Source of the DNA: Escherichia phage vB_EcoM_PhAPEC2 | Sequence record: NC_024794.1 | DNA length: 64,000 nucleotides | Reading direction: 5' to 3' (one strand) | Part shown: piece after piece, positions 7,375 through 60,819 of the stretch | Layout: every line of letters starts with the position of its first letter | Position numbering within the stretch: the stretch's first letter is position 1 | Program-made: the position numbers and the translations under genes | The notes under the pieces: model-generated | What the model was told of the DNA's origin: nothing | Databases searched by the model: none | What the model saw: only the letters and a program-made list of their open reading frames with translations

Positions 7375-7394
7375 ATTATTCTCCTCTGGTTGAT

Positions 7395-7431
7395 ATGGAT
7401 ATAATACCAAAACCAGAGGAGAAGTAAACAA
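7395..7431 (-). promoter_or_regulatory. early promoter with anti-SD spacer
   Basis: minus strand GTTTAC, TTCTCCTCTGGTTTTGG, TATTAT; spacer is reverse complement of the downstream SD region. Confidence 0.55.
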
Positions 7432-7433
7432 CT

Positions 7434-7853
7434 TTATGCGAAAGCAGCTGGGCTATATTTTTTAATTTGGAATTCAGGAACTACCATGAACTGTCCAGCG
7501 AAAACGATGTTATAAAGCTTAACACCATCTTCTACCCAACGGTCGCTAATAAATCCAGCGATTTGCTTAGTTTTCCACGGTGTTCCATCAGTTGCCGCAG
7601 CAATAGTGAATTCATGGTCTTTTTCAACAGAAACTGATCTGCATAGTCCCCATTTGAACGCTTTTTCTTCCGGTTCAATGAACTGGCTTGAGACGTAGCC
7701 AATATTACCATTAGCATCACGAACTTTAACTTGGTTACGACCAAAAACCGGATCACTCACAGAAAGAACTTCAACCAACTTCCCGGCAACTTTAGAGCGA
7801 GAAGCAACAGATACATATACGTAATCACCTGTAGAGAGATTTACAATATTCAT
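7434..7853 (-). CDS. hypothetical protein, tandem paralog family member A
   Basis: 139 aa; shares C-terminal block GFISDRWVEDGVKLYNIVFAGQF with the two following ORFs. Confidence 0.6.
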   Translation of the reverse strand: MNIVNLSTGDYVYVSVASRSKVAGKLVEVLSVSDPVFGRNQVKVRDANGNIGYVSSQFIEPEEKAFKWGLCRSVSVEKDHEFTIAAATDGTPWKTKQIAGFISDRWVEDGVKLYNIVFAGQFMVVPEFQIKKYSPAAFA

Positions 7854-8345: not shown

Positions 8346-8380
8346 TTCACTATACTCCATCCATCCTTGGATGTACAACA
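8346..8380 (-). promoter_or_regulatory. early promoter (cassette variant)
   Basis: minus strand TTGTAC, ATCCAAGGATGGATGGAG, TATAGT. Confidence 0.45.
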
Positions 8381-8875
8381 TTAATTAAGGATATTAACCA
8401 CAGCACTACGCGGAACTACACTAAAATCACCTGCATGAACTACGTTCAGAAGTTCAACACCGTCTTCAATCCACTGATCAGTTACCCATCCACTCACTGG
8501 ACCTGCAAACGGACGATGAATTGAAACAGCTTTACACAACAAATCAGTAGGCTCAATAGGCTTAATCAGAGTACCGTACATACAAGCGATATCCATATCA
8601 ATACAGATGTCTTTAACGGGTTCTACTTCTTCAATCAACAGTTCAAAGTCGGTGCTTGGAAGGGCGGTAGTAGAAATTGTACCATATGAATTTTTAATTT
8701 CTAAGAATAACCAAGGACCTTCAGCTTGTTTGATGAAGTTAACAATAGTGAAACTATTACCTTGAGTGGCACCTAAAATTTCACAAAACTTTTCATAAGC
8801 TCGCACTGAAGCACCGTACCAGTTGATTTGTTTTTCGTCTTTCAGGATGTAAGTAGCCGTAGTATTGATATTCAT
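8381..8875 (-). CDS. hypothetical protein, tandem paralog family member C (divergent N-terminus)
   Basis: track ORF 8381..8917; start moved to MNINTTATY because the upstream Met lies inside the promoter; C-terminal GWVTDQWIEDGVELLNVVHAGDF. Confidence 0.55.
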   Translation of the reverse strand: MNINTTATYILKDEKQINWYGASVRAYEKFCEILGATQGNSFTIVNFIKQAEGPWLFLEIKNSYGTISTTALPSTDFELLIEEVEPVKDICIDMDIACMYGTLIKPIEPTDLLCKAVSIHRPFAGPVSGWVTDQWIEDGVELLNVVHAGDFSVVPRSAVVNILN

Positions 8876-8899: not shown

Positions 8900-8936
8900 A
8901 GAAAGATTATACTCCAACCATCCTTGGTTGTAAACC
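8900..8936 (-). promoter_or_regulatory. early promoter (duplicated cassette copy 1)
   Basis: minus strand GTTTAC, AACCAAGGATGGTTGGAG, TATAAT. Confidence 0.55.
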
Positions 8937-20063: not shown

Positions 20064-20071
20064 TTTGTTCT

Positions 20072-20112
20072 CCAGTAGTTGATATGTCTATAATAACACA
20101 ACTACTGGAGAA
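20072..20112 (-). promoter_or_regulatory. early promoter with anti-SD spacer
   Basis: minus strand GTTTAC, TTCTCCAGTAGTTGTGT, TATTAT; 13-bp inverted repeat with the SD region. Confidence 0.55.
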
Positions 20113-20118
20113 GTAAAC

Positions 20119-20493
20119 TTAAAAATGTAATTTAGATACGTCTGCGTTGATTTCGTTTTGGTTCGCGTCATATGCAATTAAACGAACCGCTTTAGACGGG
20201 TCATTCAATGCATAGAAATGATGGAACATTGCTCGAACGATATCACCATTTACGAGTTCTACCTGGATAGGAGAACCTTTTTCGAGTTGGAAATGTTCAT
20301 AAGCTTTGATGGTTCGTAGATAATCAAGTTTTTGATTTCCGGCTCCAACAATTTGTACGATACGTTTGCCCATGTTTTCCATACGAGATACAATAGTTTT
20401 AGGAGCAAGAATAACGTAGGTTGCCAGTGGAGAAACTACTTCAACAGTTGTGTTTTCGGTGATTGCAGTAAAAATTGCTTGAGACATATTCAT
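20119..20493 (-). CDS. hypothetical protein
   Basis: 124 aa; SD AAGAGGAAAA. Confidence 0.5.
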   Translation of the reverse strand: MNMSQAIFTAITENTTVEVVSPLATYVILAPKTIVSRMENMGKRIVQIVGAGNQKLDYLRTIKAYEHFQLEKGSPIQVELVNGDIVRAMFHHFYALNDPSKAVRLIAYDANQNEINADVSKLHF

Positions 20494-24188: not shown

Positions 24189-25091
24189 TTATTCCTCGAT
24201 TACGACATCTTCGTATTTAGGTATATTATACGGTGAAGAAATTAAAGCATTAAAGTAGATGAACTCACCAAGACCTGGATGGAATACTTCTTCAGGATTT
24301 TCGAAATATTGAATCTTCGGACGTCCTTTAAGAATTTGATAGTACTCAGTTTTAGTTGGATTAAAAATTCGAATCAGCGCTTCTTCAGGATACTTATTTC
24401 TGTCGAAACTATTATTTGGATCAGTTATATAAAGCGGTTGACCTAATTGAATTGCGCATTCAACAACTTGTTCAAAACGATAGCATGGGTCACTAATTCG
24501 AAATGGATGAAAAATACCATCTAGATGAATAGGAGCCAAATCACCTACAAGACGCTGCATGATGGAAGGACGTATAACTTTCTGAGTTACGATAATCTTA
24601 TTACCATCTGCACCTGCGTTAACCAGCACTTCTTTTTGACGTTCATTCAACACAGTAGTTTGAAGTGAACGATTAACTGACAACATATCGGTTTTTAAGA
24701 ATTCGTCAATATAAAAACGTGGTTTATTAGGGTCTGCCGTGATATTGAAATTGAATTCTACATCAAAAGCGCCGTCATATCCAGTGATATCTGTTATTAG
24801 AAAATCACAATCATAATAAGCAATTAATGAATCAACCACAAATTCATTTTCAGACCAGAAATATTTACGAGTGTTATACGCGTTATCTTTATACCATAAT
24901 GGAACAAACTTAAATTCCGGGAAAAGACGTTCACATTCTTTAATATCAGATGCATTACGTGGATATGTAATCACATCACCTGGATTAGCACGGTGCAAAT
25001 GAAGTTGGAAGTTGCCATCCTTAAGGATAGCATACTGTCCAGTTTCATAAGACCGCATACTCAAAATAGGTACGCGGAATTTATTAGCCAT
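24189..25091 (-). CDS. hypothetical protein (300 aa) in the beta-gt slot
   Basis: TAATG-coupled to gene 42; no motif recognised. Confidence 0.5.
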   Translation of the reverse strand: MANKFRVPILSMRSYETGQYAILKDGNFQLHLHRANPGDVITYPRNASDIKECERLFPEFKFVPLWYKDNAYNTRKYFWSENEFVVDSLIAYYDCDFLITDITGYDGAFDVEFNFNITADPNKPRFYIDEFLKTDMLSVNRSLQTTVLNERQKEVLVNAGADGNKIIVTQKVIRPSIMQRLVGDLAPIHLDGIFHPFRISDPCYRFEQVVECAIQLGQPLYITDPNNSFDRNKYPEEALIRIFNPTKTEYYQILKGRPKIQYFENPEEVFHPGLGEFIYFNALISSPYNIPKYEDVVIEE

Positions 25092-41874: not shown

Positions 41875-41908
41875 GAGCATTATACTCTGCTCTCAAGAGT
41901 TTGTAAAT
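41875..41908 (-). promoter_or_regulatory. sigma70-consensus promoter
   Basis: minus strand TTTACA, 17 nt, TATAAT. Confidence 0.5.
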
Positions 41909-48178: not shown

Positions 48179-48585
48179 TATTTTTTCCTTTCATCGATTA
48201 AATACGCAACACCAAATACAATACATGTAATAAAACCTGTGATACCGATAGAGAACATCAACACTGTACCAAAGAACCAAATCAGATTATCTTTAGTAGT
48301 TTGTTTGATATCCATCTCACGAATTTCTATAGCTATCGTATCACCTTTATTCAGAAGCGTATAAAACGACGGTGATACATGCCTGTCAAAAACTCGACCT
48401 TGTTCATCTTTATAAACTGCAATAAATTCCAATTTAGAATATTTTCCTGTAGATTGGCCTGAGATTAATTCTACTACCTCCACAGGAATTACTTTAGTTT
48501 CCATGTAAGTATTCTGGCTGTTCCAAATGAATGGAATAATGGCAAAAACTAAAGCTGCGATAAAACAACGAAGGCTATATCTCAT
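48178..48585 (-). CDS. membrane protein
   Basis: 135 aa; N- and C-terminal hydrophobic helices. Confidence 0.55.
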   Translation of the reverse strand: MRYSLRCFIAALVFAIIPFIWNSQNTYMETKVIPVEVVELISGQSTGKYSKLEFIAVYKDEQGRVFDRHVSPSFYTLLNKGDTIAIEIREMDIKQTTKDNLIWFFGTVLMFSIGITGFITCIVFGVAYLIDERKK

Positions 48586-48890
48586 TATAATGTTCTCTCA
48601 AATTTGTGGAAGCATTTACGGCATTTCAATTTCAAGTTATCAGTGGTCCAGTTAACCAGTTGGACTTGGATAGTTCCACATTCCGGGCATGGATGTTTTG
48701 CTGCCGATTTGGCAGCATTTTCACGTCGTTCAACCATTTTCATTATTTCGTTCCATGCCGGAGGAACGAACTCTTCTTCACCGTGGATTTTATCTCGCTG
48801 AACAAATTCAATCTTTGAACTATCGTCAATAAACTTAACCAAGCCATGACTAGTGCTCATATCAATATCCTCTAAAAGACGTAGTTTCAT
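48585..48890 (-). CDS. zinc-ribbon protein
   Basis: 101 aa; CPECG...CRKC. Confidence 0.55.
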   Translation of the reverse strand: MKLRLLEDIDMSTSHGLVKFIDDSSKIEFVQRDKIHGEEEFVPPAWNEIMKMVERRENAAKSAAKHPCPECGTIQVQLVNWTTDNLKLKCRKCFHKFERTL

Positions 48891-49840
48891 TATAACACCT
48901 CAATGGCATTTCGTAAACCGTCCGCTTTCGCATTCAGAGCTTTTAACGATTTAGTTTGTTCTTTAATCTGGGCTTCGACTTCTTTCAGACGAGATTTGAG
49001 GTACTCACGTTCTTCGCTCAAGTTGTCAACTTTTTCTACTTTAGGTTCTTTAATAGTCTTAAGTTTATACTCGTTAGGGTTCTTCAGCTTAATTCGGGTA
49101 CGAGAACTGAATAACATTGAACCGTTATCTTCGGATTCGTCGAACGTTTCAACAACATCCATAGTCTCTAACAATGTAATAAGTTTATAAGACAACGAAC
49201 GAATAGTTTTGTTGTGCTTATTAATTTCTTCGGCTTTCATAGTACCGAGATTACGTGAGTAGTAATAAGGAACCTGGATATCAATTGACAATGATGCGTT
49301 ACCATTACCAGTTGGTTTGAATACTGCAGTAACCCAATCTTTAACATGAACTTTATTTGTACGGCCATCACCGCCAGTGAATAATTTACGAGAATGTTTA
49401 AAAAGCATATTCACTTGTTTATTGAATTCACAAGCAAATTTATCAGCAAATTTAGTTTCAGGAATGGTAGATAACCAATCAGCCAAATGAGTCTTTTTAA
49501 CATCATTAACAATAGTGAATTCAACCAAATCGGTTTTAGATGTCACAGATTTAATAAAGCTCGGTTTCATAAAGTTTTTAATGTTATCGCGAGCTACAGT
49601 AGAAGATAATAAACGAGAACGTTTGAACCATTGAAGCAGCGTCCCTAGTGAATGAGAATATGCATTTTGAGTATCTTTACAGATATGATTTTCTTGGCCT
49701 GTGTATGTACCAAAATCGCGAAGAATACCACTTACTACATCTCGGTGTGGAACATCAAATCCTAGTGCACCAACAGCGCGCTGGGCACGAACGTTAGCGA
49801 TAAGACCGGCAAAGTATTCAATGTAATGTGAACGTGTCAT
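48890..49840 (-). CDS. hypothetical protein with C-terminal coiled coil
   Basis: 316 aa; own copy of the duplicated promoter cassette upstream. Confidence 0.6.
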   Translation of the reverse strand: MTRSHYIEYFAGLIANVRAQRAVGALGFDVPHRDVVSGILRDFGTYTGQENHICKDTQNAYSHSLGTLLQWFKRSRLLSSTVARDNIKNFMKPSFIKSVTSKTDLVEFTIVNDVKKTHLADWLSTIPETKFADKFACEFNKQVNMLFKHSRKLFTGGDGRTNKVHVKDWVTAVFKPTGNGNASLSIDIQVPYYYSRNLGTMKAEEINKHNKTIRSLSYKLITLLETMDVVETFDESEDNGSMLFSSRTRIKLKNPNEYKLKTIKEPKVEKVDNLSEEREYLKSRLKEVEAQIKEQTKSLKALNAKADGLRNAIEVL

Positions 49841-49864
49841 AATATTTTCCTCTCGTTAAGATAG

Positions 49865-49899
49865 ATTCATTATACTCCAACCATCCTTGGTTGTAAACC
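49865..49899 (-). promoter_or_regulatory. early promoter (duplicated cassette copy 2)
   Basis: minus strand GTTTAC, AACCAAGGATGGTTGGAG, TATAAT; identical to 8900..8936 copy. Confidence 0.55.
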
Positions 49900-49902
49900 G
49901 TT

Positions 49903-50862
49903 TTATGATTTTAATGCATTCATTGCGTTAAAAAGTTTAGAATACTGCAACTGGAGATTCGTTACAACACTTTGAGCATCACGAAGCTTAGCTTGTGCTT
50001 TGTCAAGTTCAACGGACAGTTGGTCTACAGTAGCCTTGATTTGGTTGTAATGATAATCTTCGGCCGGAAGAAGGTCATTAGAAACATTTAGTTTTACTGC
50101 CGACAGTTTGCACACATTTGGCAAACATTTAAACATATCGGGTTGTGCCGGAGAATATGCGCTTAGAACCTCTGCATTACCGACTGGTGTTGCTGTGATA
50201 TTGCCTTCGAACGTTGCATTTTCCTTTTTAAGATTTTGATAGTATTCAGAGTCTTTGTGCCACCATGGCGCAGGAACCTTTTTACCAATAGATACACGAG
50301 CCTGGATAGCGATATGGCCCTTATTCTTGATAATGTCGATAATATTAAGCTCACGAGAATAAATCGCTTTAATCTGGTGGATATTATCACCTAAAACTTC
50401 CAACGCTTGGTGGAATACACGAGCAACGTTATCATTCTTAGGTTTATACGTGAGAGTGAACTCGTTCTCACTGATAACCATGATTTCCAACTTATCGTAA
50501 GTATATTTCAAATGTTTCATGTTAATTGCTTGAGGACGAATACGAGAAGCAATGGCCATCAAATTGTTAAGGTTATTTCTGAACTGTTTAGCAAAATATT
50601 GTCCATAACCGCCAATACAAAAATTACGAAGTTTCTGTTTGGCTAATAAACGGCTGAACTCACCATTTTTAATGAACTCTTTAACGGGTGTGTTAGTAAC
50701 GCATTCAAATTGAGTAAACTTACGAGAAGTAATCCCGTAATATGAACAGATTTCCTCAATCTCTTCAGGAGTCTTTACAGGCATACGGATAGGATTAGGT
50801 CCTGTGGTATATGCGTTCGAGGTAAATTCTTTGATAAGTTCTCTACGTGTAATAGAAGCCAT
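49903..50862 (-). CDS. hypothetical protein with C-terminal coiled coil
   Basis: 319 aa; own copy of the duplicated promoter cassette. Confidence 0.6.
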   Translation of the reverse strand: MASITRRELIKEFTSNAYTTGPNPIRMPVKTPEEIEEICSYYGITSRKFTQFECVTNTPVKEFIKNGEFSRLLAKQKLRNFCIGGYGQYFAKQFRNNLNNLMAIASRIRPQAINMKHLKYTYDKLEIMVISENEFTLTYKPKNDNVARVFHQALEVLGDNIHQIKAIYSRELNIIDIIKNKGHIAIQARVSIGKKVPAPWWHKDSEYYQNLKKENATFEGNITATPVGNAEVLSAYSPAQPDMFKCLPNVCKLSAVKLNVSNDLLPAEDYHYNQIKATVDQLSVELDKAQAKLRDAQSVVTNLQLQYSKLFNAMNALKS

Positions 50863-50884
50863 TTTATATTCCTCATGTTGAAAA

Positions 50885-50919
50885 ATTTATTATACTCCAA
50901 CCATCCTTGGTTGTACATC
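50885..50919 (-). promoter_or_regulatory. early promoter (duplicated cassette copy 3)
   Basis: minus strand TGTACA, ACCAAGGATGGTTGGAG, TATAAT. Confidence 0.55.
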
Positions 50920-51916
50920 ATTCCTTAAGAAGTTTTACTACTTGAATAAGATTAGCTCGTTCTGTTTTATTTTTACCGTTTAAGCCTGCTAATCGTGAGA
51001 TCTCATCGTCAGTCTGTTGAATAGTTACATTAAGTTCGTTAATCAAAGCTTCAAAGTATTTGATTTGCTCAGCATGTTTTGATTCAAATTTCTGAACCGG
51101 AATAACGTCTTGGTTTAGTTCATCAATAAGGTCTTTAAGAGCATCTTCTTGGTTGATATCATATTCAACTTCTTTTATTTCTTCAACGAGCTCGTCTTTA
51201 TATCTAACGTCTTTTAGTCCTGGAGCTGGTCCTGAAATCTCTTCTTTAAGAGTACAAACATACCCAATACGGTATCCAATACCCAGGAACGGCTTGATAT
51301 CAACTTCGTCGATAAATCCACAATGTTTAAGACCAGAGCCGATTAGGTCAAAATATCCTTGACGTCGTCCTTCAAACGTTACACGAACTACTAAGACGGT
51401 TTTACCTGCAACCTTTTGAAGCTCACATTTATAAAAGTCAGTTGAACCTGAATAACGTGGATGAGTTTTAAAGTTCATCTGACGATCTAGGCCCATTTGT
51501 AAACGTGCTGTTACGGCCATAAAACGTGTTTGGTTCTCGTTAAGATGAGCAACAATCCATTTCAAAGGCATTTTACCCTGTTCACGTCCGAACAAATCAG
51601 TACGTCCTAGATTACGCAGGATGTTGTTAGAGTTAATCATCGACAGAACGTTAAGTTTATTCAGCGCGCTGAAGATTCCATCAGCCATTGATTTTCCATA
51701 ACCTTTACACGCTTTAATAAGTGCTCGCGGCAGATTAGTATAGATTTCAGACGGCATATGAAAATCAAATTTTCTAACCAATAATTGATGAACTTGGATA
51801 GCAATTTGCTCATAATTAAGTGCTCTGCGATCGTTATGGTCTTTAAACCACACTTTAATCTGTGAAGCACATAAACCGTTAATTTCATGTTTTATCGCAT
51901 CAGATGTAATGCTCAT
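50918..51916 (-). CDS. hypothetical protein with C-terminal coiled coil
   Basis: 332 aa; degenerate copy of the promoter cassette upstream. Confidence 0.6.
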   Translation of the reverse strand: MSITSDAIKHEINGLCASQIKVWFKDHNDRRALNYEQIAIQVHQLLVRKFDFHMPSEIYTNLPRALIKACKGYGKSMADGIFSALNKLNVLSMINSNNILRNLGRTDLFGREQGKMPLKWIVAHLNENQTRFMAVTARLQMGLDRQMNFKTHPRYSGSTDFYKCELQKVAGKTVLVVRVTFEGRRQGYFDLIGSGLKHCGFIDEVDIKPFLGIGYRIGYVCTLKEEISGPAPGLKDVRYKDELVEEIKEVEYDINQEDALKDLIDELNQDVIPVQKFESKHAEQIKYFEALINELNVTIQQTDDEISRLAGLNGKNKTERANLIQVVKLLKE

Positions 51917-51978
51917 AACTATTTCCTCAGATTGAATTGGAACTCAAAACCATTATAACCCGTCCTTGGGTAAAGCGT

Positions 51979-52506
51979 TTATGCGTGAACCGTCTTTAAA
52001 CGTTCTTCAAATTTCCGAAGAGTACTAATACGTTCTGCTTTCTGTTTTGTATAGTTTGCAATACGTTCTGAAGTGAGAGCGTATCGTTCGTTTACTGTTT
52101 CTTTCATGAAGTCAGGGATTTCACGAGAAGCTTTAATTTCATCAAACTTATCGAGTACTGCCTGGTCTTCAGCGATTAAATTTTCGTACATCTCGATATC
52201 TTTCTTGATAAACTCGATATCTTCCTGGGTTACTTTGGATAAACGAGATGCTTTATCCTTTTTGTACTGCTCGTTAGTTTCACGAGACCAGAATAATGTA
52301 CGTTTTTTGTTGGTGTTTTTGTAGACTTCCACAATTCCAACTGAATCGATGATAACAATCCAATTCCAGCGAGATTTGAAAATCTGACCTCCGTCCACGG
52401 TAATCTCGTTACCATAAGCAACGTCATTAAAGAACTTGCTTTGTGCTTCAGATTTAAATTTACCGTCGTTATAATTTACCAGGTTGAAAATATCTTTAGC
52501 GTTCAT
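51979..52506 (-). CDS. hypothetical protein
   Basis: 175 aa; SD GGAGGT. Confidence 0.55.
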   Translation of the reverse strand: MNAKDIFNLVNYNDGKFKSEAQSKFFNDVAYGNEITVDGGQIFKSRWNWIVIIDSVGIVEVYKNTNKKRTLFWSRETNEQYKKDKASRLSKVTQEDIEFIKKDIEMYENLIAEDQAVLDKFDEIKASREIPDFMKETVNERYALTSERIANYTKQKAERISTLRKFEERLKTVHA

Positions 52507-52514
52507 GTTTTACC

Positions 52515-52558
52515 TCCAGTAGTTGATAGGTCTATAATAACATAACCATAGACCTTGT
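52515..52558 (-). promoter_or_regulatory. early promoter
   Basis: minus strand GTTTAC, 17 nt, TATTAT followed by AGACCTATCAA. Confidence 0.5.
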
Positions 52559-52564
52559 AAACAA

Positions 52565-52852
52565 CTAAAAGAAACTTTTTTCGGTATTTTTTCCACTGAA
52601 CCAAACAGACTTCGGGATTTTTTGTAATTTTTCAGATTTAAGTTTCTCTTCCCGTTCTTTCTTATATACACCCTTGTCGTACTGGAGCATCTCTATGGCA
52701 TTCTTTTGCAAACGATCTAAGGTAATTAAGGCTTTAGTTTTTCCTTTCAAGGAAGAGTCCTGGCGAACTTCCTCGCTATATTGCATCGTAGAACTAACCA
52801 TACGATGAGCATACAGTTCTACTGCGGCTTTAATTTTTTGCATAAAATCCAT
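52565..52852 (-). CDS. hypothetical protein
   Basis: 95 aa; SD AAGAGGA. Confidence 0.5.
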   Translation of the reverse strand: MDFMQKIKAAVELYAHRMVSSTMQYSEEVRQDSSLKGKTKALITLDRLQKNAIEMLQYDKGVYKKEREEKLKSEKLQKIPKSVWFSGKNTEKSFF

Positions 52853-52990
52853 AACATATCCTCTTCGATTTGTACATCATTATTTTTAAATATTTCTATG
52901 CCCTCAGTAAGTTCCTGGTGTCCTTCTTTGAGGTAAGCCATATGATTATTCATCTTTATGGCTTTTGTTACCTCAGAACTTCCTGTAAGC

Positions 52991-53971
52991 TTATTTCAGT
53001 AAAGTTACTTCAGAGATTTCCTCCCAACCATCCTTATCAGTTGAAATAAAATCTGCTACATAAAGAGCCGTACGTAATGATACATTGCGAAGACGAGATA
53101 CGTTAGCCTTCATCCAGGACAATGCTTTGTACGTTTCAGCATCAGTCAAGCCACGTTTCTGCATCATGTCAGTAGATAATATTACATCTTCAACTCGAAC
53201 CATAATCTCTTCATTAGAGTGTACTCCAAGGTCGAGATACACTGAACGAGATACTAAAGCTTGAAGGTGTGGAGCAAGTTTCGAACCGCGTTCTAACTCT
53301 TTATCGATATCAACGTTTGTAATGAAAACGATAGTACCTTCAAACTCAAATTCTTTATCAATACCCTTATCATCGAGATAAGATGACGCAGTGCTCCAAC
53401 AAACTTTGCGTTTATCTCCGGTATCTAATGCTGCTTTAAGAAGGTTCAAGATGTCCATATCTGAGAATACGTCAACGTCGTCGATTAAGAGAACGCTGTC
53501 TGCATCACGGTTGAGCCAAAGTTGTTCGTAAAGGCCAATACCAGAGATTTTACCATTAATGCTTTTGTATTTGATGAAACCGTTATCATTAGCGTTATTA
53601 AGTGCTTTATCCAGAGAATACGTCTTACCAATACCAGCTGCACCTGAAATAATGAGTGAACGAATTTTGCCATCGATAATGCCATTCGTCATCATGTTCA
53701 TTACTTTAAAGCGTTTGTTGATACGAGTTTTCATATCTTCAGTGCTTTCAACAACTGCAACTGGTGACGTCTCAACTCCTTCCATTACGATGTCTGATTT
53801 GAAGACCCATACTCCACGTTCAGAACCATCGATCATAACGAAAATTTTACCATCACCTAAGTGGGAACATTCAGGATTAAGCTTTGCCGGGAACCATGTC
53901 TTTGTGGCAACATAAGAACCAGAGATTTCGTTATTACGATAGATACCTTTTTTGATTTGAACGTTGAACAT
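52991..53971 (-). CDS. P-loop NTPase (Walker A/B)
   Basis: track ORF 52991..53992; SD GGAGAA precedes internal Met; Walker A GAAGIGKTY, Walker B LLIDDVD. Confidence 0.6.
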   Translation of the reverse strand: MFNVQIKKGIYRNNEISGSYVATKTWFPAKLNPECSHLGDGKIFVMIDGSERGVWVFKSDIVMEGVETSPVAVVESTEDMKTRINKRFKVMNMMTNGIIDGKIRSLIISGAAGIGKTYSLDKALNNANDNGFIKYKSINGKISGIGLYEQLWLNRDADSVLLIDDVDVFSDMDILNLLKAALDTGDKRKVCWSTASSYLDDKGIDKEFEFEGTIVFITNVDIDKELERGSKLAPHLQALVSRSVYLDLGVHSNEEIMVRVEDVILSTDMMQKRGLTDAETYKALSWMKANVSRLRNVSLRTALYVADFISTDKDGWEEISEVTLLK

Positions 53972-53995
53972 TTTATTCTCCAATTTACTCATTTT

Positions 53996-54038
53996 GTTTC
54001 GATAGGTCTATAATAACATGTTTAAAGCAAAAGTAAAC
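53996..54038 (-). promoter_or_regulatory. early promoter with embedded MotA-box-like sequence
   Basis: minus strand GTTTAC TTTTGCTTTA AACATGT TATTAT. Confidence 0.5.
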
Positions 54039-54040
54039 AA

Positions 54041-54259
54041 TTATTTGCGACGAGATTTTTTGGTAAGAGGTTTAAAGAACACTGCTTTACCGGCTGGGGT
54101 TAAGGTGACTCGTAATGCATTACCGATTCCTAAGGATGCTTTAACCAAACCTTTAGCTTTCAGTTCACCGAATGCTTGACGTTGGTCTGCATCACGAGTG
54201 TTAACCATAAGACCTTTATCACCTGCTTCACGAATCATTTCTAACATTTTGGTTTTCAT
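54041..54259 (-). CDS. small basic protein
   Basis: track ORF 54041..54316 reads through a promoter; SD AAGAGGAGAA precedes MKTKMLEMIREAG. Confidence 0.5.
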   Translation of the reverse strand: MKTKMLEMIREAGDKGLMVNTRDADQRQAFGELKAKGLVKASLGIGNALRVTLTPAGKAVFFKPLTKKSRRK

Positions 54260-54263
54260 TTTG

Positions 54264-54310
54264 TTCTCCTCTTGTTTTGATAGGTCTATAATAACATATC
54301 CTAAAAACAT
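54264..54310 (-). promoter_or_regulatory. early promoter
   Basis: minus strand GTGTAC, 17 nt, TATTAT, AGACCTATCAA, SD AAGAGGAGAA. Confidence 0.45.
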
Positions 54311-54339
54311 GTACACTACTTTTTAAAAATATTTTTACC

Positions 54340-54363
54340 CCCTAAAGGGCCCGAAGGCCCTTA
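54340..54363 (-). terminator. UUCG hairpin terminator
   Basis: minus strand AAGGGCC-UUCG-GGCCCUU then UUAGGGGGUAAAAAUAUUUUU. Confidence 0.45.
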
Positions 54364-55353
54364 TCATTTATAGTATGAATTGTGGTTTTCTAAATAGACT
54401 TGCTCAAGGAAATCATCCCAGAAACTCATATCTACTTTTTGTTGCATACCGTTCTTAGCGGCTTGTTCCGATGCTTGTTCAACTTGGCCAACGATATCTT
54501 CTAGGAATTCTTGTACAGTTTTAAACGTATGTTTACCAAGCTTAACATCGAGAATAAATGGAGCATCCTGAAGTGGGTAAACAAGGTCACCGGTTTTGTA
54601 AATTTCCAATAGTTGAAGTCCACCACGACATGCATGACTCAATGCTTTCCAGTCAATACCTTCGTTGGCTTCGGCCTTACGAGCACGTTCACCATAGTTC
54701 TCTTCCAGTTTAACCAGGATGGCATTGAACTCTTTATTGGTTAACGTGTCTTGGAATTTACGGTCCAACAGATTATAGAACGTTTGCTTACCCGTTTTCT
54801 CGTTTTCGGTTTCAACCCACGAAGCAAATTCACCTACAGGCAGAACATTCTTCATATGTGATAAACGAATTACTGCACCATTATCAAAGTATTGTCCCCA
54901 TTCATTAGAACGTTTAAGGGCTTGACGAAGAGCAGCCAGTCGAGAACCCTTGACGCCGTATTTAGAAGCTTGCTTACGGACATACCCTAAATAAGATTTC
55001 ATGTTAGTGGTATAGAAACGAGACCTGTTGTCTTGAATATACTTCCACACGTCAGGCAAATCAGATTTAATTACTAGACTTTGTGGAGTGTGAAGCATAT
55101 CTAATGCGACAGTTTCACCATCCGCAGCTAGTTTAAAGAAATATTTGAGACTATATAACTCATGGTCCACGTCGTCTTTTGTGTTCTTAGAAGATGTGTT
55201 ATTCGTGTTCTTGCTCATATGTTCTTTAACGTTACCGGTCAAGATATCACGAGCATGAGGGACATAAATTTCTTTAAAATCGACGTCAGATTCAGGAGTA
55301 GACGTTCCATAAAGGTGGCTACCAAAGTAGCCTTTCATAATTGTTTTCATCAT
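54364..55353 (-). CDS. Pol-beta-superfamily nucleotidyltransferase-fold protein
   Basis: 329 aa; N-terminal GYFGSHLYGTSTPESDVDF fits the G-S-x(n)-D-x-D minimal nucleotidyltransferase signature. Confidence 0.5.
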   Translation of the reverse strand: MMKTIMKGYFGSHLYGTSTPESDVDFKEIYVPHARDILTGNVKEHMSKNTNNTSSKNTKDDVDHELYSLKYFFKLAADGETVALDMLHTPQSLVIKSDLPDVWKYIQDNRSRFYTTNMKSYLGYVRKQASKYGVKGSRLAALRQALKRSNEWGQYFDNGAVIRLSHMKNVLPVGEFASWVETENEKTGKQTFYNLLDRKFQDTLTNKEFNAILVKLEENYGERARKAEANEGIDWKALSHACRGGLQLLEIYKTGDLVYPLQDAPFILDVKLGKHTFKTVQEFLEDIVGQVEQASEQAAKNGMQQKVDMSFWDDFLEQVYLENHNSYYK

Positions 55354-55823
55354 TTAGCCTTATATTCAAGAGTAGGACAGACTTTTTCTTTACGAGCTTT
55401 AAGGTATTCACCTATTAATGATTTCTTACGTTCAATAGGCTCAAGTCCATTTTTAATTCGTTCTTGGTTTTGTGCAATGAGCTCAACTTCTTTATAATAC
55501 TTCCGCTCTCTGTATAAGTCGATTAGCCACGGTATGCCTAATACTAAAACTATAGAAATACCAACACATAATGCAATGAATAAAACACCTACACCAATTG
55601 AGGCCGGAACTAATGTCCATAAACTACTAAAGACAAAGAATTTAGTTAAAATTTCCTGGCCAACGATTGTGGCCGCTGCTAAAATCGCAAATCCAATAAT
55701 CGAAACAAACAATACCGGGAGAAACGTTTTCCAAAAATAAGCACACAACGTTTTCGGTCGATTCCATGTACTATTAAACGCGGCATAAATTTTAAAGTGC
55801 CAAGAGTTTTCATTGATAATCAT
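55350..55823 (-). CDS. membrane protein
   Basis: 157 aa; several hydrophobic helices; ATGA-coupled. Confidence 0.55.
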   Translation of the reverse strand: MIINENSWHFKIYAAFNSTWNRPKTLCAYFWKTFLPVLFVSIIGFAILAAATIVGQEILTKFFVFSSLWTLVPASIGVGVLFIALCVGISIVLVLGIPWLIDLYRERKYYKEVELIAQNQERIKNGLEPIERKKSLIGEYLKARKEKVCPTLEYKAK

Positions 55824-56378: not shown

Positions 56379-56646
56379 TTAAAGTTTCAACAAAATTCAC
56401 CAAAGCATTCTGGCAAGCGTCAACCTGATTTCTATAAAAATTAAATAATATCCATCAATTTATTAGCTTGTTCACGGGTCATTTTACCATACTCGTTTCA
56501 ATAAGATTCACTATGCCGTTTACCATGTTATAAGTAAACATCGGATAATTGTATTGTACTACAACATAAGCGATAAGCAAAAGTTTCATTTTGTTCTCCA
56601 TTTGTTTTGGTAGGATTACTATATCATAGTCCTACCAAGACGTAAA

Positions 56647-56937
56647 CTACCGATTATGTTTTAAAATACTATAAAGAGCTTCTACTTGGCTTGCATCCAG
56701 GTAAATAACATCATCATCTTGCTCAATGGAAATTCCGCCAGTATTACCTTCAACGAAATTACATTCGCATACTTCAACAGTGCGATATACATCACCAACT
56801 GGATGCTCAGGCTCCAGAACAATCACACCATCTTCAGAACAACCGCTTGGGTCATATAACATTACAGTTTCCTCGCTAACCATGAAAAGAATAAACCAAT
56901 TAAAACAGGTCCTACAGCCATTGTTAACCAAGCCCAA
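56647..56937 (-). CDS. hypothetical protein
   Basis: 96-aa ORF. Confidence 0.4.
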   Translation of the reverse strand: MGLVNNGCRTCFNWFILFMVSEETVMLYDPSGCSEDGVIVLEPEHPVGDVYRTVEVCECNFVEGNTGGISIEQDDDVIYLDASQVEALYSILKHNR

Positions 56938-60545: not shown

Positions 60546-60598
60546 GATTTCTCCTCTAGTTGACAGGTCTATAGTAACACAACTAGAGGAGAAGTAAA
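60546..60598 (-). promoter_or_regulatory. early promoter of regB with anti-SD spacer
   Basis: minus strand GTTTAC, TTCTCCTCTAGTTGTGT, TACTAT; 13-bp perfect inverted repeat with the SD-containing leader. Confidence 0.55.
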
Positions 60599-60603
60599 CT
60601 ACT

Positions 60604-60819
60604 TTATTGATAAAATGGAGTTAAAGCCCAAGATTCTTTAGATACCATATTGGCGAAATGCCTCATCTCTTCGATTTGGCGACGACGCTGGTCAGCATAG
60701 TCTTCTTCGCCTTCTTCCTTACAATCTTCAAGGTCTTCTTCAAGATACTTTAAGTATTCACTACAAATTTTGTTGACCTTTTCTTGAAAGTCCAATAACC
60801 CAGTAATACTAGAAGCCAT
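60604..60819 (-). CDS. hypothetical acidic protein
   Basis: 71 aa. Confidence 0.5.
   Translation of the reverse strand: MASSITGLLDFQEKVNKICSEYLKYLEEDLEDCKEEGEEDYADQRRRQIEEMRHFANMVSKESWALTPFYQ

What the first reader, a model, noticed from the sequence alone, without database searches (positions are those of the whole stretch)
49865..49899. Near-identical promoter cassette present in 3 copies plus 2 variants
The 30-bp unit GTTTAC-AACCAAGGATGGTTGGAG-TATAAT occurs almost identically at about 8900, 49865 and 50885, with variants at about 8346 and 51930. The spacer contains a 6-bp palindrome (CAACCA/TGGTTG). Conserved spacers are unusual for sigma70-type promoters, so either the cassette moved together with its gene or the spacer is a protein-binding site.
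Basis: seen in the sequence. Interest (0 to 1): 0.5.

Follow-up and report, generated by a model that had tools for sequence, protein, structure and literature searches.

The report
Repeated hairpin-bearing early promoter cassettes
This RB69-like T4-type phage reuses one compact early promoter with a small hairpin between its two boxes in front of several unrelated genes, and related phages have lost the gene lying between two copies by recombination inside the repeat, which is a known way these phages shuffle genes.

Summary
The 30-mer GTTTACAACCAAGGATGGTTGGAGTATAAT lies on the minus strand at 8906-8935 and 49869-49898 (exact) and at 50889-50918 (2 mismatches). A 5-mismatch variant lies at 8349-8378. 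No shuffle of 100 gave a match.

The window is a Mosigvirus (RB69-like) genome. [quoted passage not shown] The downstream genes are motB.1, motB, nrdC.3 and nrdC.5. The first two share a MotB-like C-terminal domain; the rest are unrelated.

These are PeSL-type cassettes ("promoter-early stem-loop", Arbiol 2010; Comeau 2014). Four of the five sites were already predicted as RB69 early promoters in 2006. The fifth site (51952-51976) shares only the hairpin and -10 box and is orthologous to the mapped T4 middle promoter PnrdC.7.

The hairpin is under selection: its outer stem pairs covary across phages, while the core C-AAGGAY-G stays fixed.

The cassettes are recombination substrates. Twenty-one phage records lack nrdC.5 and at least 18 lack motB.1, and every junction read lies inside the cassette.

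What the hairpin does is unresolved. It is not terminator-like, and its core matches the consensus binding site of the host protein CsrA. Verdict: a new member of a known kind, of modest interest.

The parts
8906..8935 (-). Cassette copy 1, in the dexA|motB.1 intergenic gap. The -35 box is (G)TTTACA, the spacer is 17 bp and the -10 box is TATAAT. The hairpin is at 8915-8930.
   Evidence: Exact 30-mer. Sequence context. Orthologous RB69 site predicted as early promoter Pe:8947.
8349..8378 (-). Variant cassette in the motB.1|motB intergenic gap. The -35 box is TGTACA and the -10 box is TATAGT. The hairpin CATCCA-AGGA-TGGATG is at 8358-8373.
   Evidence: Orthologous RB69 site predicted as Pe:8387, with a low score of 6.2.
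49869..49898 (-). Cassette copy 2, in the nrdC.5|nrdC.3 intergenic gap. The hairpin is at 49878-49893.
   Evidence: Exact 30-mer. Best sigma70 match (11 of 12) in a 9-kb scan. Orthologous RB69 site predicted as Pe:51019.
50889..50918 (-). Cassette copy 3, in the nrdC.6|nrdC.5 intergenic gap. The -35 box is TGTACA, and the TGA stop codon of nrdC.6 overlaps the first base of the cassette. The hairpin is at 50898-50913.
   Evidence: Two mismatches. Sequence context. Orthologous RB69 site predicted as Pe:52042.
51952..51976 (-). Hairpin-bearing MotA-type (middle) promoter candidate upstream of nrdC.6. It reads CGCTTTA, then 13 nt containing CCCAAGGACGGG, then TATAAT.
   Evidence: Sequence. The positional ortholog in T4 (CGCTTTA-TACCAAGGATGG-TATAAT) has its -10 box 7 nt upstream of the mapped start site of PnrdC.7 at 53325. 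It was not among the predicted RB69 early promoters.
8381..8875 (-). motB.1, a gene module flanked by two cassette copies that lie 557 bp apart.
   Evidence: Absent from AV115, G2285 and ST2, with the junction inside the cassette. At least 18 listed records carry the one-piece junction.
49903..50862 (-). nrdC.5 (DUF7235), a gene module flanked by two cassette copies that lie 1020 bp apart.
   Evidence: Absent from AV109 and ESCO47, with the junction inside the cassette. Twenty-one records carry the junction.

Best explanation
The repeats are PeSL-type regulatory cassettes of a T4-type phage (genus Mosigvirus).

**Step 1: promoter.** Each cassette is a compact immediate-early promoter for host sigma70 RNA polymerase. 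It has an A-rich stretch containing the upstream stop codon, a TTTACA or TGTACA -35 box, a 17-bp spacer and a TATAAT -10 box. About 26-30 nt of leader follow, carrying the ribosome-binding site and the ATG. This status is inferred from sequence and from an earlier HMM prediction in RB69. It has not been tested experimentally.

**Step 2: hairpin.** The spacer encodes a 6-bp stem with the loop AGGA. The hairpin lies upstream of the cassette's own start site, so only transcripts reading through from upstream genes contain it. Selection on pairing is shown by covariation. Its molecular role is inferred only. It may mark or attenuate read-through RNA, or be bound by a factor.

**Step 3: recombination.** The roughly 26-45 bp of identity between copies serves as a direct repeat for the phage's efficient homologous recombination. 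This deletes, and in principle inserts or swaps, the promoter-plus-gene module lying between two copies, and it keeps the copies homogenised. Natural deletion variants show this step.

**Fifth site.** It is the same hairpin placed in a MotA-dependent middle promoter.
For: **Promoter**
- The match is 11 of 12 to the sigma70 hexamers with a 17-bp spacer.
- It has the same architecture as about 20 other GTTTAC...TATAAT promoters in the window.
- Nolan et al. 2006 predicted early promoters at the four orthologous RB69 positions.

**PeSL definition**
[quoted passage not shown] PeSLs sit in hyperplastic regions and next to indels.

**Hairpin**
- Its free energy is -6.9 kcal/mol, z = -2.3 against shuffles.
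- A collection scan that left the stem free found 4-5 of 5 pairs in every promoter-context hit and mostly 0-3 in background hits.
- Across 12 distinct variants, 87.5% of cells are paired against 62.9% in shuffles, and 4 of 6 pairs change on both sides. The covariation score is 0.553 against 0.111, reached by 0 of 500 shuffles. Slid controls score at most 0.139.

**Recombination**
- AV109 lacks exactly the 1020 bp between copies 2 and 3, with a 27-bp overlap at the junction.
- ESCO47 has a chimeric hairpin at the same junction.
- AV115 and ST2 lack the 557 bp carrying motB.1. G2285 lacks it too, but with the crossover at a different point in the cassette.
- 21 records lack nrdC.5 and at least 18 lack motB.1. 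All four presence/absence combinations exist.

**Other**
- The downstream genes are unrelated.
- T4 nrdC.4 is flanked by AGGA-loop hairpin elements.
Against: - Promoter activity and start sites are not measured for this phage.
- The hairpin has no U tract and is weak, so the terminator role shown for one G/C-rich RB49 PeSL stem-loop is not supported here.
- Plain hairpin function does not explain the invariant loop and inner stem (CAAGGAYG).
- One covarying variant (AACACCA) came from a scan that required pairing, so it is circular.
- The number of independent covariation events is small.
- Deletion rather than insertion is inferred only from the presence of both genes in T4.
Confidence: 0.8

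Rival explanations
1. The hairpin is an RNA binding site for the host regulator CsrA. It would be present only in read-through transcripts. CsrA bound there, possibly bridging to the GGA of the downstream ribosome-binding site, would silence or stabilise read-through mRNA, or would titrate CsrA. This is compatible with the PeSL reading and concerns only what the hairpin does.
For: - The positions invariant in all 12 variants are C-A-A-G-G-A-Y-G. That equals the CsrA/RsmE consensus CANGGANG, with GGA in a hairpin loop closed by a C-G pair.
- The only variable core position (T or C) is an N of that consensus.
- The T4 nrdC.4 promoter hairpin contains ACAAGGAUGU, a 10 of 10 match to the SELEX core ACARGGAUGU.
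- E. coli CsrB carries ACACCAGGATGGTGT, against AACACCAAGGATGGTGTT in the phage.
- All four hairpin-presented CANGGANG sites on the sense strand of the window are the cassettes.
Against: - No binding or expression data exist.
- GGA-rich loops also resemble ribosome-binding sites.
- The antisense strand has 2 hairpin-presented CANGGANG sites by chance.
- The motB leader has no second GGA.
- No paper in the library links CsrA to T4-type mRNAs.
Confidence: 0.2
2. The palindrome is a double-stranded DNA operator for a dimeric phage or host protein that switches these promoters on or off.
For: The element has dyad symmetry. Both half-sites change symmetrically between types (CAACCA/TGGTTG and CATCCA/TGGATG). 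The core is invariant.
Against: - The centre AGGA is asymmetric.
- G-U (T-G) pairs occur in the L015 variant and in T4 nrdC.4, and these would break DNA symmetry.
- The hairpin lies at four different distances from the -10 box, and it also occurs in a MotA-type promoter.
- No candidate binding protein is known.
Confidence: 0.1
3. The hairpin plus the adjacent GGAG is an RNA processing or 3'-end element. The phage endonuclease RegB would cut at GGAG, or polymerase would pause or terminate there. The upstream mRNA would end in a protective hairpin and neighbouring cistrons would be uncoupled.
For: - GGAG directly follows the stem in all Mosigvirus copies, in the JS98-like copies and in T4 nrdC.4|nrdC.3.
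- RegB cuts intergenic GGAG that has an A-rich 3' side.
- The stem-loop of one RB49 PeSL acted as a terminator in vivo.
Against: - There is no U tract, and the site is not terminator-like.
- GGAGUAUAAU fits the strong RegB consensus GGAGRAYARAA only partly.
- The first G of GGAG is paired in the stem.
- Three family members have no GGAG (T4 nrdC.4 promoter, T4 PnrdC.7 and the AACACCA type).
Confidence: 0.15
4. The copies are leftovers of tandem duplication of a gene together with its promoter.
For: motB.1, motB and the motB-like ORF share a MotB C-terminal domain. nrdC.3, nrdC.5 and nrdC.6 are similar in length.
Against: - nrdC.3, nrdC.5, nrdC.6 and motB.1 fall into different PHROG or Pfam families and have no BLASTP similarity, yet their promoter cores are 26 of 26 identical.
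- One copy lies 41 kb from the others.
Confidence: 0.03

Closest known systems
PeSLs (promoter-early stem-loops) of the T4-type phages RB49/phi1 (Arbiol et al. 2010, PMC2839356)
   Same: - Composite of an upstream stop codon in AT-rich sequence, -35/-10 boxes, a stem-loop, a ribosome-binding site and the ATG.
[quoted passage not shown]
- Repeated in hyperplastic regions in front of unrelated small genes.
- Recombination between neighbouring copies removes the intervening ORF, with crossovers at varying points inside the element.
   Different: - RB49 stems are G-rich (GGGG...CCCC), and one acted as a strong terminator. Here the stem is weak (-6.9 kcal/mol), has a fixed AGGA loop and has no U tract.
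- The RB49 -35 box is TTGACA. Here it is TTTACA or TGTACA.
- Mini-circles were not, and could not be, tested here.
PeSLs and PmSLs of T4/PST and KVP40/nt-1 (Comeau et al. 2014, PMC4122927)
   Same: - The promoter consensus TTTACW-N17-TAYWAT given for T4/PST fits these copies.
- Intact and 'degraded' PeSLs are reported near 43-51 kb of PST, which is the nrdC region.
- Stem-loop cassettes built on MotA-type middle promoters (PmSLs) exist, like the fifth site here.
   Different: - That paper describes T4/PST stems as AGNA-loop-TCNT lying just upstream of the promoter. Here the hairpin sits inside the spacer and has a CCA-AGGA-TGG core.
- The papers read here do not treat Mosigvirus.
T4 and RB69 early promoters (Nolan et al. 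2006, PMC1524935; Hinton 2010, PMC2988021)
   Same: The -35 box is GTTTAC, the upstream region is A-rich and the -10 box is TATAAT. The four RB69 orthologs are on the predicted list (Pe:8387, Pe:8947, Pe:51019, Pe:52042).
   Different: These copies lack the TGn extended -10 box that most early promoters of the window carry. Their spacer is identical between copies, which the general consensus does not explain.
T4 middle promoter PnrdC.7 (start site 53325; Hinton 2010, Table 1)
   Same: It is the positional ortholog of the fifth site, with a GCTTTA MotA-box core, 12-13 nt containing the AGGA hairpin, and TATAAT.
   Different: In the window it precedes the gene RB69 calls nrdC.6. The first base of the box is C rather than T. 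It has not been mapped in this phage.
CsrA-binding hairpins of the E. coli sRNA CsrB, and the consensus CANGGANG / RUACARGGAUGU
   Same: GGA sits in the loop of a short hairpin, closed by C-G, with an 8 of 8 match to the core. One CsrB hairpin is nearly the same as one phage variant.
   Different: The position 5' of the core is C rather than A or U. The hairpin lies in a promoter spacer of a lytic phage. No evidence of binding exists.
Integron gene cassettes (ORF plus a folded attC hairpin)
   Same: This is an analogy only. Single genes are bounded by repeated hairpin-forming sites and are gained or lost as units.
   Different: No integrase is present. The crossover points vary, which indicates homologous recombination. 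The repeat is a promoter.

Membership tests
PeSL (promoter-early stem-loop cassette) | Sigma70-like early promoter with -35 and -10 boxes about 17 bp apart | tested here: met
   TTTACA-17-TATAAT matches 11 of 12 and TGTACA-17-TATAAT matches 10 of 12. RB69 orthologs were predicted by HMM. Activity was not measured.
PeSL (promoter-early stem-loop cassette) | [quoted passage not shown] | tested here: met
   A 6-bp stem with a 4-nt loop lies in the spacer. Covariation supports pairing.
PeSL (promoter-early stem-loop cassette) | Fills the intergenic gap: upstream stop codon in AT-rich sequence at the 5' end, ribosome-binding site and start codon at the 3' end | tested here: met
   The stop codons lie 2-5 nt upstream of the 30-mer or overlap it by 1 nt. 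The ATG lies 26-30 nt after the -10 box.
PeSL (promoter-early stem-loop cassette) | Repeated, and located in hyperplastic regions among non-essential or unknown genes | tested here: met
   The copies lie in the dexA-motB and nrdC.x regions. The downstream proteins have unknown function or are MotB-like.
PeSL (promoter-early stem-loop cassette) | Indels between close relatives end in the element, meaning recombination between copies | tested here: met
   The nrdC.5 and motB.1 deletions have junctions inside the cassette, at three or more different crossover points.
PeSL (promoter-early stem-loop cassette) | The stem-loop terminates or attenuates upstream transcription | tested here: inconclusive
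   There is no U tract, and the consensus scan does not list it as terminator-like. The free energy is only -6.9 kcal/mol. A function in vivo cannot be tested here.
PeSL (promoter-early stem-loop cassette) | Formation of excised mini-circles | not testable with these tools
   This needs inverse PCR on infected cells or virions.
MotA-dependent middle promoter (fifth site only) | MotA box (a/t)(a/t)(a/t)TGCTT(t/c)A, then 11-13 nt, then TAtaAT | tested here: inconclusive
   The site reads AAACGCTTTA-N13-TATAAT. The GCTTTA core and the spacing fit, but the first T of the box is C (consensus). The T4 ortholog is the mapped PnrdC.7.
Intrinsic (rho-independent) terminator | G+C-rich stem followed by a run of U | tested here: not met
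   The stem is followed by GAGUAUAAU. The site is absent from the terminator-like list.
CsrA/RsmA binding site | GGA in the loop of a short hairpin with flanks matching CANGGANG / RUACARGGAUGU | tested here: met
   CAAGGAYG is found in 11 of 12 variants. This is a match by sequence only.
CsrA/RsmA binding site | Present in RNA, bound by CsrA, with a regulatory effect | not testable with these tools
   The hairpin lies upstream of its own predicted start site, so it exists only in read-through RNA. No binding data are available.
Known RNA families (Rfam 15) | Match to a curated covariance model | tested here: not met
   No match at any cassette at E up to 1.

The most novel reading that the evidence does not exclude
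The invariant C-AAGGAY-G hairpin that T4-type phages place in the spacers of early and middle promoters is a high-affinity binding site for the host regulator CsrA. It is carried only by transcripts that read through from upstream genes. The phage would use it to tell read-through mRNA from promoter-proximal mRNA, by translational insulation or stabilisation, or to soak up CsrA early in infection. The same repeats double as recombination linkers.
Probability: 0.15. Interest if true: 0.7.

Novelty: new member of a known kind. Interest (0 to 1): 0.3.

Why it matters
**What it adds to the PeSL model**
- It extends PeSL-mediated modular shuffling to the RB69-like genus Mosigvirus, with clean population-level evidence.
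- Two single-gene modules, motB.1 and nrdC.5, are each bracketed by the same promoter repeat.
- Each module is independently present or absent in roughly a tenth or more of sequenced relatives, and the junctions lie inside the repeat.
- This is useful for annotating these genomes and for understanding how phages used in therapy vary in accessory genes.

**An open point about the hairpin**
- Its loop and inner stem stay fixed across genera and across promoter classes, while the outer stem covaries.
- This points to a sequence-specific partner that the PeSL papers did not identify. Host CsrA is a testable candidate.

Tried and rejected
- **Chance repeat.** Rejected: 0 of 100 shuffles gave a match.
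- **Gene-plus-promoter duplication.** Rejected: the downstream proteins are unrelated.
- **Known RNA family.** No Rfam match at the cassettes.
- **Intrinsic terminator.** Not supported.
- **Wider structure.** Folding 83-87 nt around each copy gave no structure better than shuffles (z from -0.26 to +1.18). Only the local hairpin stands out.
- **More copies elsewhere in the genome.** None in the remaining 105 kb of the close relative Shf125875. Two further AGGA-loop promoters with a different stem (AACACCA) were found there.
- **Orthologous upstream regions.** The search for related loci with NrdC.3 returned only 4 loci, too few for covariation.
- **AV112.** Its two-piece match was checked for a cassette-linked rearrangement. 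All three intergenic elements are intact, and the only change there is a T-to-C change in one hairpin.
- **JS98-like phages.** The type-2 cassette precedes a 336-aa gene with no detectable homolog in the window. Its N-terminus resembles T4 nrdC.4, but this was not tested.
- **RegB site.** It fits the strong-site consensus only partly.

Full report
**Observation.** The 30-mer GTTTACAACCAAGGATGGTTGGAGTATAAT lies on the minus strand at 8906-8935 and 49869-49898 with no mismatch. It lies at 50889-50918 with two mismatches, both in the first hexamer. None of 100 dinucleotide-preserving shuffles gave any match. The 18-nt spacer alone gives a fourth site at 8355-8372 with two mismatches. The full variant there (8349-8378) differs at 5 of 30 positions. 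The palindrome CAACCA-AGGA-TGGTTG is present in the three near-identical copies. It shares only CCAAGGA(C)GG and TATAAT, and the distance between its two boxes is 6 bp shorter. The copies at 8906 and 49869 stay similar for about 14 nt beyond the 30-mer.

**Context.** The window is 97-98% identical to complete genomes of the genus Mosigvirus (RB69-like T4-type phages) and is collinear with RB69 starting from rIIA. All genes near the copies are on the minus strand. Using RB69 gene names, the copies lie in these intergenic gaps:
- dexA|motB.1 (8906)
- motB.1|motB (8349)
- nrdC.5|nrdC.3 (49869)
- nrdC.6|nrdC.5 (50889)
- nrdC.8|nrdC.6 (51952)

Each element starts 2-5 nt after the stop codon of the upstream gene, or overlaps it by 1 nt. 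It ends 26-30 nt before the next ATG, after a ribosome-binding site. With the -35 box read as TTTACA, the spacer is 17 bp and the match to the sigma70 hexamers is 11 of 12. This is the best match in a 9-kb scan. About 20 other GTTTAC...TATAAT promoters lie in the window in the same kind of position, each with a different spacer.

**Not a gene duplication.** NrdC.3, NrdC.5 and NrdC.6 show no BLASTP similarity to each other or to MotB.1. They fall into three different PHROG families, and NrdC.5 is DUF7235. MotB.1 and MotB share only a MotB-like C-terminal domain. A promoter core that is 26 of 26 identical in front of unrelated genes, with one copy 41 kb from the others, means the promoter itself was copied or homogenised.

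**Already described class.** Arbiol et al. 2010 defined PeSLs (promoter-early stem-loops) in RB49/phi1. A PeSL holds the upstream stop codon in AT-rich sequence, sigma70-like -35 and -10 boxes, a stem-loop most often between the two boxes, and the ribosome-binding site and ATG. PeSLs are repeated in hyperplastic regions, and recombination between neighbouring copies removes the ORF in between. Comeau et al. 2014 extended the class to T4/PST, with the consensus TTTACW-N17-TAYWAT, and to KVP40/nt-1. They also described versions built on MotA-type middle promoters, called PmSLs. Nolan et al. 2006 had already predicted early promoters at the four orthologous RB69 positions: Pe:8387, Pe:8947, Pe:51019 and Pe:52042. 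They did not predict one upstream of nrdC.6.

**The fifth site is a middle promoter.** It reads AAACGCTTTA-N13-TATAAT, which fits the MotA-box core GCTT(t/c)A and the 11-13 nt spacing (consensus). Its positional ortholog in T4 is CGCTTTA-TACCAAGGATGG-TATAAT, between nrdC.8 and nrdC.7. The -10 box there ends at 53332. The experimentally identified T4 middle promoter PnrdC.7 starts at 53325. So the same hairpin occurs in two promoter classes.

**The hairpin is under selection.** Folded alone, the 30-mer forms the 6-bp stem at -6.9 kcal/mol, with z = -2.3 against shuffles. I scanned IMG/VR with the pattern TAC-N5-AGGA-N5-GGAGTATA, which leaves the stem free. Every hit in a T4-type promoter context had 4-5 of 5 possible pairs, while background hits mostly had 0-3. 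The stems seen across phages are:
- CAACCA/TGGTTG
- CATCCA/TGGATG
- CTTCCA/TGGAGG (one G-U pair)
- AGCCA/TGGCT (T4 nrdC.4|nrdC.3)
- GCCACA/TGTGG(T) (T4 nrdC.5|nrdC.4)
- TATACCA/TGGTATA (T4 PnrdC.7)
- AACACCA/TGGTGTT (two further promoters in Shf125875)

On 12 distinct variants, 87.5% of cells pair against 62.9% in shuffles (0 of 500 reach the observed value). Four of six pairs change on both sides. The covariation score is 0.553 against 0.111 (0 of 500), and slid controls reach at most 0.139. There are three caveats. The sequences are related to each other. The independent events are few. The AACACCA variant came from a scan that required pairing.

The core is different: the loop and the two inner pairs (C-AAGGAY-G) do not vary. 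The hairpin also sits at four different distances from the -10 box in different family members. This argues against a fixed contact with RNA polymerase or a classical operator.

**The cassettes are recombination substrates.**
- AV109 aligns to window 48200-49895 and to 50889-52900, with a 27-bp overlap in the phage. It therefore lacks exactly the 1020 bp between copies 2 and 3, including nrdC.5. Its single cassette has the ATGTAC -35 box of copy 3 and the leader of nrdC.3.
- ESCO47 has the same architecture but a chimeric hairpin, CAACCA-AGGA-CGGATG. This is what a crossover in the loop between two hairpin types would give.
- AV115 and ST2 lack the 557 bp between the 8906 and 8349 copies, including motB.1, and keep the CAACCA-type hairpin. 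G2285 lacks the same stretch but keeps GTTTAC joined to the CATCCA-type hairpin, so its crossover lies elsewhere in the cassette.
- A 261-nt probe across the nrdC.6-cassette-nrdC.3 junction matches 21 of 154 records in one piece. At least 18 of the 40 best records match the dexA-cassette-motB junction in one piece.
- The two deletions occur independently: p000v lacks only nrdC.5, JK45 lacks only motB.1, AV115 lacks both, and the window lacks neither.
- T4 has both genes, so the gene-less states are most simply deletions. This is an inference.
- T4 also has an extra gene, nrdC.4, between nrdC.3 and nrdC.5, with an AGGA-loop hairpin element on each side.
- The varying crossover points indicate homologous recombination or copy-choice over a short stretch of identity, not a site-specific cut.

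**Genome-wide count.** A 45-nt probe finds 3-4 places in each Mosigvirus genome. In Shf125875, the 105 kb outside the window's span holds no further copy of the 26-nt core at 6 or fewer mismatches.

**What the hairpin does is not settled.**
- It is not terminator-like. It has no U tract and does not appear in the terminator scan. No Rfam family matches it.
- GGAG follows the stem in most copies, and the phage endonuclease RegB cuts intergenic GGAG. However, the fit to the strong-site consensus GGAGRAYARAA is partial, and three family members lack GGAG.
- The invariant core equals the CsrA/RsmE recognition consensus CANGGANG, with GGA in a hairpin loop. The T4 nrdC.4 promoter hairpin contains ACAAGGAUGU, which is the SELEX core. 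E. coli CsrB contains ACACCAGGATGGTGT, against the phage's AACACCAAGGATGGTGTT. On the sense strand of the window, the only CANGGANG sites presented in a hairpin are the four cassettes. The antisense strand has two such sites by chance.
- The CsrA match is a lead from sequence only. No paper in the library links CsrA to T4-type mRNAs. One paper reports that CsrB is stabilised during T4 infection.

**Verdict.** It is wrong on gene duplication, and the DNA operator idea is untested and less likely. The feature is a new member, in Mosigvirus, of the known PeSL/PmSL class, and it gives a clear natural illustration of cassette-mediated gene loss. The remaining question is which partner recognises the fixed loop.

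Noticed in passing
window 7379-7437, 20068-20126, 60549-60607; also 56618-56647, 52534-52562, 41879-41908 (minus strand): A second family of early promoters carries 9-14 bp inverted repeats. [quoted passage not shown] Read-through RNA would hide the ribosome-binding site, while RNA started at the promoter would lack the 5' arm. T4 genes e, soc, 49 and I-TevI use the same logic at late promoters.
   Followed up: partly
window 51952-51976 (minus strand): The fifth 'variant' fits a MotA-dependent middle promoter and is the positional ortholog of the mapped T4 promoter PnrdC.7 (start site 53325). The AGGA hairpin is therefore shared by early and middle promoters.
   Followed up: yes
L055 8365-8382 and L056 24243-24260 (Shf125875 72365-72382 and 138243-138260): Two more AGGA-loop hairpin promoters with the stem AACACCA/TGGTGTT lie outside the window's span. 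The hairpin is almost the same as one hairpin of E. coli CsrB (ACACCAGGATGGTGT).
   Followed up: partly
L056 about 24200-24270 (Shf125875 alc, annotated 137707-138270): The annotated start of alc lies upstream of a complete hairpin promoter with its ribosome-binding site and ATG. The start is probably over-extended by about 22 codons.
   Followed up: no
window 8633-8726 (minus strand), inside motB.1: There is a Y_RNA match below threshold (26.6 bits against a gathering score of 38, E = 0.005). It lies in coding sequence and is most likely chance.
   Followed up: no
window 48500-55400 and related GenBank records: Many public records label all nrdC.x genes 'thioredoxin'. Only nrdC is a thioredoxin, so the label seems to have spread from the gene names. 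NrdC.5 is DUF7235, and NrdC.3 and NrdC.6 have no Pfam family.
   Followed up: partly
L015 and L033 (VR20-like phages); L009-L011, L028, L030, L032 (JS98-like phages): In other T4-type genera, the cassette with a CATCCA or CTTCCA stem precedes a 336-aa gene that has no detectable homolog in the window. Its N-terminus (MTRTEY) resembles T4 nrdC.4.
   Followed up: partly
window 63558 and 48688 (plus strand): Two CANGGANG motifs presented in short hairpins lie on the strand antisense to the genes. They were used only as a chance control and not examined further.
   Followed up: no
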